A stretch of 63,973 nt of DNA, filler included, from a bacterium (GCA_040757115.1; 7 parts of 7 records of this genome joined end to end with filler, not necessarily neighbours in it); one strand, 5' to 3'; counted from the whole stretch's first letter, positions 2,316 through 63,973 are shown. A program made the numbers and translations. Notes: a model not told the origin generated them from the letters alone.

Positions 2316-2626
2316 TGCTCTGTCATACTTCAATTGATAGATAAAAGGTAATTGTTCACCGCAGAGACGCAGAGAAAGAGAGAGGAAAATATCTTTTTTT
2401 TTCGTGTTTTTCGGTGTTTAAAAAGGCTTAAAAACAATTACTCGAAAGTAAGTATTAAAAGATTAATAAACAACGAAAGACCCAAAATGCACAAAAAAAA
2501 GGAAATTTCTGTTTCTGGTGAATAGATTTTAATTTTTTGTAACCGTTCAGGGCTATACATTACAGGGCTATACATTAGAAGTGTAAACAAGGAGAAATGG
2601 GGAAAAGGGAGAATTAGAGAAATGGC

Positions 2627-3190
2627 TCAAACTTTTTCTTGCTCCACCCTTCGAACATCAATCTTGGAGTCTGCGAAATTTACCAGTAACCCTATTTCTT
2701 TATCCACTGCTCTAAGGTATGCTCTAACCTGATTATAATACTTCCCACTTATCTCCTCAACAGTTTTAATCTCTACCACAATCTCATCTTCAACAAAAAG
2801 ATCAAGTCTATCAATCCCAACCTCAACACCTTGATAGAATATCTTGACTTCTTTTTCTGATTCAAAGATGATGTTCTGTCTTGCAAACTCAACCTTCAAG
2901 GCATTGTGATAGATGCTCTCCAGAAAACCAGGTCCTAATGTCGTGTTGAACAAATAACGCACGGAATTCGATTCTGGTAACTGGTGATTGGTAACTGGTA
3001 ATTAAATACCGTTCGGCTGAGCTCAGGACGAAACTATTTAACCAATTACCAATTACCAGTTACCAATTATCCGTTTGCAGGTTACGAAACCTGATGATGC
3101 CCCGTGCAAAACTTACTCAATACGACACTAACTTTTGATGGACATTAATACAGGCATTAATAATCCTATCAGTTAACTCTTTTTCTCCAT
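2627..3190 (-). pseudogene. GxxExxY (PD-(D/E)XK-like) protein interrupted by a MITE
   Basis: Removing 2939-3131 rejoins KELTDRIINACINVHQKL with GPGFLESIYHNAL...DLFVEDEIVVEIK. The ATG at 3190 is out of frame with this by one base in an A-run. Confidence 0.85.
2939..3127. mobile_element. 189-bp MITE (family B), TSD CTAA
   Basis: TGTCGTGTTGA ... TCAATACGACA TIRs, flanked by CTAA on both sides; interrupts a gene. Confidence 0.9.
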
Positions 3191-3307
3191 TTCTCCATCT
3201 TCTCTCCCTTTCTCCTTATTTTTATCCTACCTGAACTCTTACAATTTTTTCTGTGCATCTCTGTGTCTTTGCGGTGAAACGGTTACGAAGGTTTAATCTC
3301 TCACTAA

Positions 3308-4315
3308 TTATTTCATAAAGAAAAGTCCTGCCAGAAAGATTAAATAAAATCCACTAGCTCCTAATAATACATAAGGATTAATTTTTTCTTGAATACTCAT
3401 CATTATAAAAATAAGTGTAGAAACTACTATGGGAATACCGCCTGTTAGAAGTGCTATTCCCTGTAAGTGCCAGGGACTAAATAAAATTCCTAACATAACC
3501 AGAATAGTAGCTTGAAATATCATCGAACTAATTATATTGCTTAATGCCAATGTATCTTTGTTATCTTTTAACCATATAATTATATTAATTTTTGAAGGAA
3601 TTTCAATTACCAGAGGAGCAAAGATTATCGCTAAAATTAACCCTAATAATGGAGATTGAATTCCAATAGTTATTTCTTTCATAGTATGAACAAATAAATA
3701 ACTCCCTCCGATTAAAGATATTAAAGAAATGACAAGTTGGGAGATAATAGTTGCTGATGTTGTTTCTCCTCTACCCCCTGAGAAGTATAATGGGGTGTAG
3801 AGTTCTTCAAATGCTCTTTCTTCATAAGCAATACTTCGATAGAGATAATAGCCATAAATTATTAATAAAACAAATCCAATGAATATTTGTGGGAACTTAT
3901 CTTCAAGTAACCCTGCAAATATGGCGAAGGAGTAAGTAATTAAGAAAAATTTCAAATCTCTTGATATAATTAGCTCATCAGCGTCTATTTCACTATCTCG
4001 CTCGCCTTTTTTAGCCAGTAATATAATTGTCAATCCAAATATACCAGGGGCTAATGTGGATAAAATAAGTGGTGCACCAATGATTGCTCCAATACCTATT
4101 GGTATAGTTTCTGTTCCACGGAGGAAAATAAAGGCAGTTAAAGGAATTATTATCTGTGGAAGACATTTCCCTGTGATTGAGATGATATTTCCAATAGTTC
4201 CTTCGGCTAATTCAAATGTCTTCCCCAGCCATTCTATAGCATTATTGAAAAAGAAACAGGAAATAAAGATTAATCCTATGCTTAAAACAAATAAGATAAT
4301 TGAAATAATCTCCAT
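3308..4315 (-). CDS. Sodium/calcium exchanger family membrane protein
   Basis: About 10 TM helices; alpha-repeat-like GKCLPQ and EIPSK segments; GIGAIIGAP. Confidence 0.75.
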   Translation of the reverse strand: MEIISIILFVLSIGLIFISCFFFNNAIEWLGKTFELAEGTIGNIISITGKCLPQIIIPLTAFIFLRGTETIPIGIGAIIGAPLILSTLAPGIFGLTIILLAKKGERDSEIDADELIISRDLKFFLITYSFAIFAGLLEDKFPQIFIGFVLLIIYGYYLYRSIAYEERAFEELYTPLYFSGGRGETTSATIISQLVISLISLIGGSYLFVHTMKEITIGIQSPLLGLILAIIFAPLVIEIPSKINIIIWLKDNKDTLALSNIISSMIFQATILVMLGILFSPWHLQGIALLTGGIPIVVSTLIFIMMSIQEKINPYVLLGASGFYLIFLAGLFFMK

Positions 4316-4741
4316 GATTTTTCTTCTCCTGAAAATAGAAAGTAGAGAGTAGAGAGTAGAAAGTAGAAAGTAAAGAAAACATCACTCCTCACGCTTATCT
4401 CCCCATCTCCCACCTTCTATCTACTATTTTCATCTTCATTTGTGAACTAACGGTTCATGACCGTTTCCTCTGAAAATGAACGCAGATTTATTCGTCCTTC
4501 TAAATAAATTATCGGCATTTTAATAAAATACTTTAGATGGGACGGTCTATTTTTTTTCGTTTTTACAAAATAAAAACTGGAAAACCTAACTTTTCTGGGA
4601 CGGTTCACTTTTGTTTGAAAGATTGCGGTTAGAAATTCGAAATTAGAAATTGGGACAAAAATCAAGAATCTTTCTCTCTAATTTCGAATTTCCAATTTCA
4701 ATTCTCTCTATTCTTTTATATCCAACTCTTCCAATCTACCA

Positions 4742-62164: not shown

Positions 62165-62240
62165 TACTTAGATTACCTCCTCGTTTTTTGGTAAATGGTA
62201 ACTGGTGACTGGTAATTAATTACCAATTACCAGTTATCTG

Positions 62241-62561
62241 TTAAGATTGAAAATATACATCCTTTATAACTTGCATTCCCACCGCAGAATTAATCTTTTT
62301 GATAATATCTTTTTTAAAGAATGAAAGTTCATTACACCAGGCGGAGCTATCAACCTTAACAAAAATTATCTTATCCTTGATTGTCAATGGTTTTGTATGG
62401 ACCGCAACATTAGTTCCAACTACCTCTTGCCATAATTGAATTGCCCGTTCTTCAGCTAATTTATGTGCTAAAGAAATTTCTCGCCCCTTATCAATTACCT
62501 TTATTCTCCGCATCATTTTATCTAACACATTGCCAAATTCTTCAATTCGACGACCTCTCAT
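62241..62561 (-). CDS. dciA: DciA / DUF721 family protein
   Basis: W.EVVG...HTKP..VDSSAW; lies between recF and gyrB. Confidence 0.85.
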   Translation of the reverse strand: MRGRRIEEFGNVLDKMMRRIKVIDKGREISLAHKLAEERAIQLWQEVVGTNVAVHTKPLTIKDKIIFVKVDSSAWCNELSFFKKDIIKKINSAVGMQVIKDVYFQS

Positions 62562-63636
62562 TTATCTCACCCTGCCTGATTTTAAATATGCAGGCATCCT
62601 TTACAAAATCTGGATTTAAGTCATGTAAATCCGTCGTGGTAATAAATACCTGTGTTAGGTCTGGTATAAAATTTAGAAGAGCCTGACGCCTATTCTTATC
62701 CAATTCAGAAGTAACATCATCTAACAAAAGGATAGGAAATTCTTGTGTTTGTTGATAAATATTTTGCACCTGGGCTAATTTTAAACAAATAGTGATAGTT
62801 CTTTGTTGTCCCTGTGAGGCAAAGTATCTTGCCTCAACATCATTTATATAAAAAGAAATATCATCTCGATGAGGTCCAACTAAAGTTACTTCCTGTCTTA
62901 TCTCATCTTCCTGCTTATTTTTCTGCGTTTTTCTAAAGTCCTCCTCAACCACACAAGGTCTATATTTTATCTTTAGTTCTTGCGGCTGTCCACTAATCTG
63001 ATGATAAACTTCATTAATTAAGGGATTTAAACTATCTATTAGTTCTTTTCTTTTCTTTATAATCTCAATACCTGTTTCTATTAGTTGTTCATTCCATACC
63101 TCTAATTCTGTTATGTCACATTTCATATTTTTCTTAAGGAAAGATAATGTTTGATTCCGCTGTCTAATGATTTTGAGGTATCTTTGCAGGTTGTATAAGT
63201 ACTTTGGGGATGTTTGTGAAAGTTCAATATCCATAAATCGTCTTCTTATTGCCGGGGCGCCTTTGATAATATTCAAATCCTGTGGTGAAAAGACAATTAC
63301 CTTCAATTCCCCAATCAAATCTATTATCCTGGTGAGCGGTTTATTATTTATTTTTACCTTCTTAAGGTTATTAGTAAATAAGATGTTAATCTCAAGTGTA
63401 GTATTATTTTTCCATATTTCCCCATTCAGATAAAAATCTGTTTGCCCAAATTTAATTAGTTGTCTATCCTCACTTGTGCGGAAGGATTTTAGAATACCAA
63501 GAAAATATATCGCCTCTAAAAGATTTGTTTTCCCTGCCCCATTTTCTCCCACAAAGATATTTATTTTCGAATCAAAACTTAACTCGTTATCGAATAAATT
63601 TCTAAAGTTTTTGGTAATTATTCTTTTTAAGAACAA
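62542..63636 (-). CDS. recF: DNA replication and repair protein RecF
   Basis: NFRN, GENGAGKTN, GPHRDD, SQGQQR, LLLDDV. Confidence 0.96.
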   Translation of the reverse strand: MFLKRIITKNFRNLFDNELSFDSKINIFVGENGAGKTNLLEAIYFLGILKSFRTSEDRQLIKFGQTDFYLNGEIWKNNTTLEINILFTNNLKKVKINNKPLTRIIDLIGELKVIVFSPQDLNIIKGAPAIRRRFMDIELSQTSPKYLYNLQRYLKIIRQRNQTLSFLKKNMKCDITELEVWNEQLIETGIEIIKKRKELIDSLNPLINEVYHQISGQPQELKIKYRPCVVEEDFRKTQKNKQEDEIRQEVTLVGPHRDDISFYINDVEARYFASQGQQRTITICLKLAQVQNIYQQTQEFPILLLDDVTSELDKNRRQALLNFIPDLTQVFITTTDLHDLNPDFVKDACIFKIRQGEINERSSN

Positions 63637-63846
63637 CTGGTCACCTTTGTATGCTTCTCCTGAAAATAGTTAATTAGAGATTAGAGAATTAGTGAATTAG
63701 AACCTGCACTCTTGCTAATCTCCAATCTCTAATCTCTATGCTCAATTTTCATCTTCCTTTGTGCCCACTCCCTGTGGGCATCGTCGTTTCTCCTATACCC
63801 TATGTCAAGGTTAAATATATCTGTGAAATCTGCGGATTAATTTCCA

Positions 63847-63973
63847 GTAAGCGTTCAGGTGGTGTAACAAAAGGAGATATGGAGATTAAGGAGATAGGGA
63901 GATATTATTAAAAAAATTGAAATTAATAGAAACTAATAGAAATTTATGGAAATTTGTTGTTTTCCACAATCAA
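63847..63973 (-). mobile_element. Partial 237-bp MITE at the window end
   Basis: Begins GTAAGCGTTCAGG; near-identical reverse complement of ~18051-18177. Confidence 0.9.

What the first reader, a model, noticed from the sequence alone, without database searches (positions are those of the whole stretch)
2348..63973. MITE superfamily with shared GTAAC..TTCA ends, 8-bp TSDs and interchangeable microrepeat interiors
Seen: five elements have perfect 8-bp AT-rich TSDs: 2539-3242 (AATTTTTT), 17941-18177 (TAATTTTG), 28016-28226 (TTTAATTT), 38861-39109 (TATTTTTG) and 40769-41059 (TATAAAAA). Further full or partial copies start at 2348, 9659, 17770, 28416, 33322, 37372, 37860, ~38112, 43022, 56174 and 63847. 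All share an ~11-bp end, GTAA(C/G)(C/T)(G/A)TTCA, but the interiors are largely unrelated 7-9-mer repeat families arranged as a forward run followed by its complement. Two carry GxxExxY sequence. No transposase is in the window. Inference: a trans-acting DDE transposase mobilises any DNA bracketed by these ends, acting as a general gene-capture vehicle; 8-9-bp TSDs fit Mutator-like IS256/ISLre2/ISH6 or IS1-type enzymes.
Basis: partly seen in the sequence, partly recalled or inferred. Interest (0 to 1): 0.8.

Follow-up and report, generated by a model that had tools for sequence, protein, structure and literature searches.

The report
IS66-type miniature transposons with hairpin interiors
The repeats are real small mobile elements that lack their own transposase and carry the ends and 8-bp target duplications of the known IS66 insertion-sequence family, so they are a new, very abundant member of a known kind and not a new transposon class.

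Summary
The 11-nt end GTAASYRTTCA occurs 23 times in the window against 0.21 expected. All five stated 8-bp target-site duplications (TSDs) are exact. The nearest genome held, G001 (98-99% identical in unique DNA), has 1,592 such ends against 20 for the control. Empty and filled sites exist in both directions between the two genomes.

The elements are mobilised in trans by a DDE transposase, but of the IS66 family, not IS256, IS1, ISH6 or ISLre2.
- Single-ORF IS66 elements in the same phylum carry the same ends; G009 has GTAACCGTTCAC at both ends of a 1,505-bp element.
- The catalogued ISAva2 has GTAAGGATTCAGGT at both ends with an 8-bp TSD.
- Published ISDge4 ends are GTAACTGCTCAGCA with an 8-bp repeat.

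"General gene capture" is not supported. The only cargo seen is a small GxxExxY nuclease gene, and both window copies are broken.

The varied interiors come from hairpin cassettes of 7-9-nt microrepeats. In G001 these also flank GxxExxY and four-helix-bundle genes that have no IS66 ends.

The window is seven draft contigs joined by N linkers.

The parts
2348..3286 (+). Outer CGCAGAG-arm element (type T2). Ends are GTAATTGTTCACC and, read inward from the right end, GTAACCGTTTCACC. It has no TSD and is interrupted by the next part.
2539..3242 (+). Nested 704-bp element (type T4) with ends GTAACCGTTCAGG and GTAAGAGTTCAGG. TSD AATTTTTT at 2531-2538 and 3243-3250.
   Evidence: A second copy of the same composite lies at another locus in G001 (C39, 97.7% over 684 nt).
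2648..3179 (-). Broken GxxExxY (PF13366 / TIGR04256) PD-(D/E)XK gene. Residues 17-113 lie at 2938-2648 and residues 1-17 at 3179-3129.
   Evidence: Pfam E 3.7e-30; TIGR04256 108.6 bits; tblastn
2939..3127 (+). Nested 189-bp element of a different family, beginning TGTCGTGTTGAAC, with 4-bp duplication CTAA. It is not part of the GTAA family and it splits the GxxExxY gene.
9659..9780 (-). Partial 237-bp-type (T1) element cut by a contig edge.
17770..17808 (+). Solo left end of a T2-type element (GTAACCGTTCAGGTAATCC...). No partner end was found.
17941..18177 (+). Complete 237-bp T1 element with TSD TAATTTTG. It sits in a cluster between two tRNA genes.
   Evidence: One search lists 39 places at 92-100% identity in G001.
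28016..28226 (+). T2 element with TSD TTTAATTT, carrying a nested 92-bp T3 element at 28079-28170 (ends GTAACTATTCAGCC).
28416..28578 (+). T4-like left end running into a contig edge.
37372..37759 (+). End fragment (GTAAGCGTTCAGC) followed by a T3-like left end at 37408. It runs to a contig edge.
37860..38088 (+). Element with ends GTAACTATTCACC that starts at a contig edge. It holds an N-terminal GxxExxY fragment at 38043-37969 (minus strand).
38089..38258 (+). T2 remnant with a nested T3 at 38113-38204. The T3-in-T2 junctions are the same as at 28016-28226.
38861..39109 (+). 249-bp T2 element with TSD TATTTTTG. The orthologous site in G001 (C25) is empty and has a single TATTTTTG.
40769..41059 (+). 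291-bp element (ends GTAACTATTCACC and GTAACTATTCAGC, GTAGGAA-type arms) with TSD TATAAAAA. G001 has a different element a few bp away.
43022..43258 (+). Second complete T1 copy. Its printed sequence matches 17941-18177 letter for letter. No TSD (AATAATAG against AATATCTG).
56174..56300 (+). Partial T1 at a contig edge. The terminal base of its end is not conserved.
63847..63973 (-). Partial T1, in the orientation opposite to 17941-18177 (it begins with the GTAAGCGTTCAGG end), cut by the end of the window.

Best explanation
These are non-autonomous derivatives (MITEs) of single-ORF IS66-family insertion sequences. An IS66-type DDE transposase encoded elsewhere in the genome recognises about 11-14 bp at each end (GTAA-NNN-TTCA-SS). 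It inserts the segment with an 8-bp staggered cut, preferring AT-rich intergenic DNA. It moves whatever lies between two such ends, including nested composites.

The interiors are not random captured DNA. They derive from a pre-existing class of hairpin cassettes: inverted arrays of 7-9-nt microrepeats that in this lineage flank small GxxExxY nuclease genes. A few cassette lineages became bracketed by IS66 ends, lost or broke the gene, and then multiplied to hundreds of copies.

Shown: the ends, the TSDs, recent insertion polymorphism, IS66 elements with identical ends in related genomes, and shared subterminal sequence between MITE types and gene-bearing elements.

Inferred: which transposase acts in this species, that about 13 bp of end is sufficient, and the order of events (cassette first, ends later).
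For: 1. Reality and mobility.
- 23 ends in the window against 0.21 expected.
- 800 forward and 792 reverse ends in G001 against 13 and 7 for the control.
- 17 of 59 nearest end pairs have a perfect 8-bp TSD, against 0 of 59 for displaced 8-mers. The 19 TSDs are 79% A+T.
- The site of 38861-39109 is empty in G001 C25. The converse case is a filled site in G001 C65, with TSD GAATAAGG, that is empty in the window at about 57567.

2. IS66 identity of the ends.
- L077 (G009) is a 1,505-bp element with GTAACCGTTCAC at both ends. Its single 476-aa ORF scores 270.3 bits on NF033517, the IS66 transposase model (cut-off 180), and matches Pfam DDE_Tnp_IS66, zf-IS66 and DUF6444.
- L076 (G007) is 1,737 bp with GTAACTACTCAGG at both ends and a 541-aa ORF scoring 283.6 bits.
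- L078 (G021) has GTAACTATTCAGC at both ends around a broken transposase.
- L092 (G007) has the end GTAACTATTCAGCC, identical over 14 nt to the window's T3 elements.
- The catalogued ISAva2 on a Trichormus variabilis plasmid is 1,547 bp, has GTAAGGATTCAGGT at both ends and the TSD CGATAAAG. That is 12 of 14 identical to the window's GTAAGCGTTCAGGT.
- Literature passages: IS66 inverted repeats start GTAAGCG and give 8-bp direct repeats (PMC11946415). ISDge4, of the single-ORF ISBst12 group, has TIRs GTGACTACTCAGCA and GTAACTGCTCAGCA and an 8-bp direct repeat (PMC12898284).

3. Same species. G001 holds two IS66-family transposases.
- One has the left end GTAATTGTTTACC (C698).
- The other has a C-terminal end present at three contig edges. 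All three copies end in the same terminus, GTAACTGCTCATCA read inward, and then diverge.

4. Distribution in the phylum. Ends exceed the control more than 4-fold in 22 of 24 genomes. PF03050 matches 16 of 24.

5. Interiors.
- T2 and T4 share subterminal sequence with the gene-bearing elements L038 and L053.
- T1 shares its first ~40 nt with T4.
- A 292-bp subfamily carries the C-terminal half of the gene in 7 copies, 4 with perfect TSDs.
Against: - No IS66 element with exactly the MITE ends was recovered from the window's own species. The two found in G001 match the commonest MITE ends at 8 of 11 and 10 of 11 positions, and only fragments are assembled.
- None of the three complete transposase-bearing elements (L076, L077, L078) has a perfect 8-bp TSD.
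- 8 of 24 genomes have no PF03050 match, although four of them have many ends: G015 901, G003 350, G011 286, G013 200. Loss of multi-copy IS from draft assemblies is a plausible reason but is not shown.
- 40 of 59 nearest end pairs lack a TSD with at most one mismatch. Mis-pairing in nested clusters, recombination between copies and assembly chimeras are likely causes and were not tested.
- Published IS66 inverted repeats are 20-30 bp, whereas here only about 13 bp are shared.
Confidence: 0.85

Rival explanations
1. One reading: a Mutator-like IS256, ISLre2 or ISH6 transposase, or an IS1-type one, mobilises the elements.
For: No call supports this version.
Against: - PF03400 (IS1) has 0 matches in G001.
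- Every transposase-bearing element found with these ends is IS66 family.
- Ends starting GTAA are the published IS66 signature.
- IS256, ISLre2 and ISH6 were not searched for directly.
Confidence: 0.03
2. The GxxExxY PD-(D/E)XK nuclease is the element's own mobility enzyme, and the gene-bearing TIR elements are the autonomous forms.
For: - Gene-bearing versions exist for several MITE types (L038, L053, L054 and the window's T4).
- G001 has 71 PF13366 matches, many of them decayed, as expected of a selfish family.
Against: - 12 of 17 full-length genes have no such end within about 115 nt.
- The most numerous subfamilies (T1, and the 292-bp type) lack an intact gene.
- The same ends bracket IS66 transposases.
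- A fixed 8-bp TSD with TIRs is the DDE pattern. This last point rests on established knowledge, not on a test here.
Confidence: 0.04
3. The hairpin microrepeat cassette is the primary mobile unit and moves by an unknown mechanism. The IS66 ends are secondary passengers on some copies.
For: - Cassettes without IS66 ends are common. 17 of 17 GxxExxY loci and 12 of 12 four-helix-bundle loci have significant inverted arms, yet only 5 of 17 and 1 of 12 have a GTAA end nearby.
- A 98-bp arm-only hairpin at about 58574-58675 is absent from the orthologous G001 site and present at two other G001 loci at 97-98% identity.
Against: - The TSDs sit exactly outside the GTAA ends.
- Elements with unrelated interiors share the ends.
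- This reading does not explain the 8-bp duplications. It can be true of the cassettes without being the explanation of this finding.
Confidence: 0.08

Closest known systems
ISBst12-group / ISAva2-like single-ORF members of the IS66 family (ISDge4, ISAva2)
   Same: Ends begin GTAA and read GTAA-NNN-TTCA-GG/GC. ISAva2 has GTAAGGATTCAGGT and ISDge4 has GTAACTGCTCAGCA. Both give 8-bp duplications. Autonomous relatives with identical ends and one IS66 transposase ORF exist in the same phylum.
   Different: The window's elements carry no transposase and are 92-704 bp long. Their interiors are unrelated to any IS66 interior that I saw. The phylum's transposases are under 30% identical to the best plasmid-borne IS66 relatives.
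Bacterial MITEs such as Nezha (Anabaena, Nostoc), as described in PMC3184786 (passages read)
   Same: Small, with TIRs matching an IS, flanking direct repeats, stable predicted hairpins, and empty or filled sites between close relatives. In both cases the matching IS sits in a related genome, not the same one.
   Different: Here many subfamilies share only about 13 nt of end. Copy number is far higher, roughly 800 elements in 4.7 Mb if the ends pair up. The interiors derive from gene cassettes.
23S rRNA intervening-sequence elements: a stem of inverted repeats enclosing a four-helix-bundle ORF. That the rRNA elements have an inverted-repeat stem is recalled. Pfam PF05635 names the family.
   Same: A small ORF enclosed by complementary arms. 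G001 has 39 PF05635 matches, and 12 of 12 examined have such arms.
   Different: Here they lie outside rRNA genes, the arms are tandem microrepeats, and a second gene type (GxxExxY) uses the same layout. They explain the interiors, not the mobility with TSDs.

Membership tests
IS66 family (as non-autonomous derivatives) | Terminal inverted repeats beginning 5'-GTAA (canonical GTAAGCG) | tested here: met
   All ends begin GTAA, and the GTAAGCGTTCA variant is present. The definition comes from a passage in PMC11946415.
IS66 family (as non-autonomous derivatives) | 8-bp target-site duplication | tested here: met
   Five of five claimed TSDs in the window are exact. 17 of 59 nearest end pairs are perfect against 0 of 59 controls. 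Empty sites hold a single copy of the 8-mer.
IS66 family (as non-autonomous derivatives) | Autonomous partner with the same ends that encodes an IS66-type DDE transposase (PF03050 / NF033517) | tested here: met
   Met in related genomes: L077, L076, L078 and L092. In the same species only near-matching ends were found (10 of 11 and 8 of 11), and only on fragments. At species level the result is inconclusive.
IS66 family, canonical three-gene type (tnpA, tnpB, tnpC) | Accessory tnpA and tnpB genes upstream of the transposase | tested here: not met
   The 1,505-bp and 1,737-bp elements hold one ORF of 150 aa or more. One type in G001 and in metagenome contigs has only a 46-aa DUF2080 ORF. They therefore fit the single-ORF (ISBst12-like) architecture named in PMC12898284.
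IS66 family | Inverted repeats of 20-30 bp | tested here: not met
   Conservation among subfamilies ends after about 13 nt. L077 has a 13-nt TIR and ISAva2 a 14-nt TIR. The metagenome type reaches about 22 nt.
MITE | Small, multi-copy, with TIRs and TSDs, no transposase gene, and hairpin potential | tested here: met
   TSD-bearing copies are 143-400 bp. G001 holds 1,592 ends. Fold z-scores are -7.46 and -6.69. The window holds no transposase.
IS1 family | IS1 transposase (PF03400) present in the genome | tested here: not met
   0 matches in G001, while the control genomes scored.
IS256 / ISLre2 / ISH6 | Transposase of that family bracketed by these ends | not tested
   No direct search was made. 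They were set aside because IS66 elements with identical ends were found.

The most novel reading that the evidence does not exclude
The microrepeat hairpins that form the MITE interiors may belong to a separate, undescribed class of cassette. Each cassette is a small gene (a GxxExxY PD-(D/E)XK nuclease or a four-helix-bundle 'rRNA intervening-sequence' protein) enclosed by inverted arrays of a 7-9-nt unit. The two arms stay complementary while the unit itself diverges in step with the protein, for example CACAGAT, CACAAAG, CGCAAAG, CGCAGAG, CACGAAG and CACGGAT. Such cassettes would spread, or be maintained, by a mechanism of their own: binding of the arms by the encoded protein, or RNA-level stem processing. 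The IS66 ends would merely have hitch-hiked on a few of them.
Probability: 0.3. Interest if true: 0.65.

Novelty: new member of a known kind. Interest (0 to 1): 0.4.

Why it matters
Elements with these ends make up roughly 4% of the nearest genome (my estimate: about 800 elements of about 250 bp in 4.7 Mb). They cover 5.6% of this window. They break draft assemblies at nearly every contig edge seen here, and they differ between strains that are 98-99% identical. They are therefore a main source of structural variation in an uncultured groundwater lineage.

They also show that an IS66-type transposase can work with ends as short as about 13 bp. A 2024 review of prokaryotic MITEs does not mention IS66 at all (0 occurrences in its main text).

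The link to GxxExxY and four-helix-bundle cassettes gives a concrete handle on two very common 'unknown function' gene families.

Tried and rejected
- Whole genome of the window: not held. I used G001 instead.
- IS1: no PF03400 match in G001.
- L002, a 526-aa transposase-like ORF in G001 C212 with a weak IS66 hit (22.5 bits): no GTAA ends nearby, so set aside.
- Full length of the second G001 transposase: not assembled. A 451-aa relative from G014 found only the same three C-terminal fragments, and the G014 element's ends could not be defined.
- Genome-collection scan with the G001 transposase: one locus only. Metagenome scan: five loci, which gave complete copies of the GTAATTGTTTAG-type IS but no perfect TSDs.
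- Rfam at gathering threshold: only two tRNAs, and no known RNA family in the elements.
- Protein atlas with GyrB, used to try to place the organism: uninformative.
- Sequencing runs: one DNA holder, kept as contigs, and no RNA holder listed. Laying its contigs gave no joint across either element, so there is no evidence of an empty allele in that sample. Summed word depth over the elements is far above the flanks, but the tool warns that this is not a copy number.
- Literature: two searches for IS66-derived MITEs and two for GxxExxY or intervening-sequence cassettes found no paper describing either. For most hits I saw only listings and abstract starts, plus the passages cited.
- Plasmid examples of GxxExxY genes: 3 records. 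Treponema has a single inverted repeat, while the Fusobacteria and Persicobacter records have direct rather than inverted flanking repeats. The arm layout is therefore not universal.

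
Full report
WHAT THE WINDOW IS

The 63,973 bases are not one stretch of chromosome. Six 100-nt linkers (44 N, TTAATTAATTAA, 44 N) join seven draft contigs of about 9.2 kb each. Several 'partial copies' in the finding (9659, 37860, 56174) are elements cut at contig edges, which is expected when an assembler meets a high-copy repeat.

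G+C is about 34-36%. The genes include sigma-54 activators, a secretin, cytochrome c554-like and prismane proteins, GyrB and RecF. They point to an uncultured bacterium and not to a cyanobacterium. No whole genome is held for the window. The nearest genome held, G001 (4.7 Mb, 770 contigs), is 96-99% identical in unique DNA.

THE OBSERVATION

The end GTAASYRTTCA occurs 23 times against 0.21 expected.

By subterminal sequence the copies fall into several types:
- T1, 237 bp: 17941-18177 and 43022-43258 (the two printed sequences match letter for letter), plus three partial copies at contig or window edges.
- T2, with CGCAGAG-type arms: 28016-28226, 38861-39109, 2348-3286 and a remnant at 38089-38258.
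- T3, 92 bp: nested in two T2 copies.
- T4, 704 bp: 2539-3242, itself nested in a T2 copy.
- Elements with GTAACTATTCACC ends: 40769-41059 and 37860-38088.

Conservation among types ends after about 13 nt. Interiors are forward and complement runs of 7-9-nt units, and they fold far better than shuffles (z = -7.46 and -6.69). No known RNA family matches them. Together the elements cover 5.6% of the window.

TSD STATISTICS

G001 has 800 forward and 792 reverse ends against 13 and 7 for the reversed-pattern control.

I pooled the window with the G001 loci I had fetched. This is a biased sample, because many loci were fetched for their repeats or GxxExxY genes. In it, 17 of 59 distinct nearest end pairs have a perfect 8-bp TSD and 2 more have one mismatch. 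None of 59 does with 8-mers displaced by 8 bp. The 19 perfect TSD elements among all 80 pairs are 143-400 bp long, and their targets are 79% A+T.

EVIDENCE OF RECENT MOVEMENT
- The window's 38861-39109 is absent from the orthologous site in G001 C25, which carries a single TATTTTTG.
- G001 C65 has a 285-bp element with TSD GAATAAGG where the window, at about 57567, is empty.
- G001 has further insertions next to the tRNA at 17586-17658 that the window lacks: a 143-bp element with TSD TATAATTG and a T4-type element.
- T1 is listed at 39-40 places in G001 at 92-100% identity.
- The T4 composite, including its foreign nested insert, exists at a second locus in G001. So whatever lies between the ends is moved.

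WHICH TRANSPOSASE

The window has none. G001 has no IS1 but has IS66-family hits.

One G001 hit (C698) starts at a contig edge with GTAATTGTTTACC. It encodes a 46-aa DUF2080 ORF and an IS66 transposase. Complete copies on metagenome contigs are 1,532-1,561 bp with a TIR of about 22 nt.

A second, only 33% identical, survives as C-terminal fragments at three contig edges. All three end at the same terminus, GTAACTGCTCATCA read inward, and then diverge.

Across the 24 genomes held for the phylum, the ends are enriched more than 4-fold over the control in 22, and PF03050 matches 16. Among the loci returned:
- G009 holds a 1,505-bp element with GTAACCGTTCAC at both ends and one 476-aa ORF.
- G007 holds a 1,737-bp element with GTAACTACTCAGG at both ends and a 541-aa ORF.
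- G021 holds a decayed one with GTAACTATTCAGC at both ends.
- A G007 contig has a transposase C-terminus followed by GTAACTATTCAGCC, identical over 14 nt to the window's T3 ends.

Both intact ORFs pass NCBI's IS66 transposase model (270.3 and 283.6 bits, cut-off 180) and carry DDE_Tnp_IS66, zf-IS66 and DUF6444.

As an outside check, I measured the ends of a catalogued element. ISAva2 on a Trichormus variabilis plasmid is 1,547 bp, with GTAAGGATTCAGGT at both ends and the TSD CGATAAAG.

Passages in two papers agree. IS66 inverted repeats start GTAAGCG and give 8-bp repeats (PMC11946415). ISDge4, a single-ORF member of the ISBst12 group, has GTGACTACTCAGCA and GTAACTGCTCAGCA with an 8-bp repeat (PMC12898284).

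So the ends belong to a catalogued family.

WEAK POINTS
- No element with exactly the MITE ends was recovered from the window's own species.
- The three complete autonomous elements lack perfect TSDs.
- Four genomes rich in ends (G015, G003, G011, G013) show no IS66 hit.
- Only about 13 nt are shared, where 20-30 nt is the published norm.

Draft assemblies routinely lose multi-copy IS. This may explain the first and third points, but I could not show it.

THE INTERIORS AND THE 'CARGO'

The only gene inside the window's elements is a GxxExxY PD-(D/E)XK gene (PF13366, TIGR04256). Both window copies are broken:
- In T4 the gene is split by a 189-bp element of a different family (TGTCGTGTTGAAC ends, 4-bp CTAA duplication).
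- In 37860-38088 only an N-terminal fragment remains: the first 24-47 residues, depending on the tblastn query.

G001 has 71 PF13366 matches, 17 of them full length. Of those 17, five have a GTAA end within about 115 nt on at least one side and twelve do not. All 17 are flanked by significant inverted arms (0 of 200 shuffles reach the score). The arms are built of units such as CGCAGAG, CACGAAG, CACAAAG, CACAGAT, CACGGAT and CGCAAAG.

Protein identity tracks the arm unit. The three CACAGAT copies are 85-96% identical. Two of the three CACAAAG copies are 83% identical to each other, and the third is only 48-51% identical to them. The CGCAAAG copy is 58-64% identical to the two close CACAAAG copies. 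Gene and arms therefore evolve as one unit.

The same layout holds for 12 of 12 examined four-helix-bundle (PF05635) genes out of 39 matches, and only one of the 12 has a GTAA end nearby.

T2 and T4 share their subterminal sequence with the gene-bearing elements L038 and L053. T1's first ~40 nt resemble T4's left end. A 292-bp subfamily keeps the C-terminal half of the gene (7 copies, 4 with perfect TSDs).

The 'interchangeable interiors' are thus best read as different cassette lineages that came to lie between IS66 ends and then decayed. Nothing suggests capture of arbitrary genes.

PDDEXK_3 is listed as 'function unknown' in the superfamily survey (PMC3424549, table passage). I found no paper describing the arm architecture.

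VERDICT

This is a real and very abundant family of non-autonomous IS66-type elements: a new member of a known kind. The hairpin cassettes that supply its interiors are the part least explained, and the part worth following.

Noticed in passing
window 9559-9658, 19205-19304, 28579-28678, 37760-37859, 46930-47029, 56074-56173: 100-nt linkers (N44, TTAATTAATTAA, N44) show that the window is a chain of seven contigs of falling size. Gene order across linkers is artificial.
   Followed up: yes
window 2939-3127 and 12731 onward; G001 C65 about 3912-4090 (L117): A second MITE-like family begins TGTCGTGTTGAAC. The copy at 2939-3127 is flanked by a 4-bp CTAA duplication. Its interior combines a TGGTAAC microrepeat hairpin with a conserved core (GGCTGAGCTCAGGACGAAAC), and the core also occurs near window 33480.
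   Followed up: partly
window 58399-58579; G001 loci L126-L131: A third repeat of about 181 bp is bounded on both sides by TATTTTCAGGGG(A)A and occurs at more than 25 places in G001. Modules of this kind are often chained head to tail. A similar start (AACGCTCATGAG...) sits inside the element at window 28416.
   Followed up: partly
window about 58574-58675: A 98-bp CGCAGAT-arm hairpin without GTAA ends is present in the window and absent at the orthologous G001 site. It is flanked by a direct repeat, CTATTTTCAGG, and occurs at two other G001 loci at 97-98% identity.
   Followed up: partly
window 9369-9473, 33370-33445, 49668-49932, 60120-60199: Further microrepeat hairpins lie in intergenic DNA without GTAA ends. 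The one at 33370-33445 looks like a CGCAAAG-arm GxxExxY cassette with the gene gone.
   Followed up: no
G001 loci L104-L115: G001 has 39 matches to the four-helix-bundle '23S rRNA intervening sequence protein' family. All 12 examined are enclosed by inverted microrepeat arrays. In L112 the cassette lies between copies of a 25-nt repeat (ACCTGATGAATAAGGGATTGCGACG) spaced like a CRISPR array, and the same repeat is next to L110.
   Followed up: partly
L095 (Treponema plasmid), L096 (Fusobacteria plasmid): GxxExxY genes in two other phyla are flanked by repeats containing ATCCGTG / CACGGAT, the same unit as some arms here. The repeat is inverted in Treponema and direct in the Fusobacteria record.
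   Followed up: partly
L005 (contig of a MAG labelled Nanoarchaeota), 2778 onward: The left 50 nt of the GTAATTGTTTACC-type IS66 element are identical to those in G001. This means either a mis-binned contig or recent transfer.
   Followed up: no
window 17586-17658 and 18370-18440: Two tRNA genes bracket the cluster of elements at 17770-18250. The intergenic DNA here differs strongly between the window and G001 through element gain and loss.
   Followed up: partly
window 43534-43881 and 45497-46384: A MazF/PemK-like toxin ORF and an N6/N4 DNA methylase lie just downstream of the TSD-less T1 copy at 43022-43258.
   Followed up: no
G001 C1 (89.8 kb; L011-L015): This longest contig has only 5 exact ends in 90 kb, against about 1 per 3 kb genome-wide, so element density is very uneven.
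   Followed up: no
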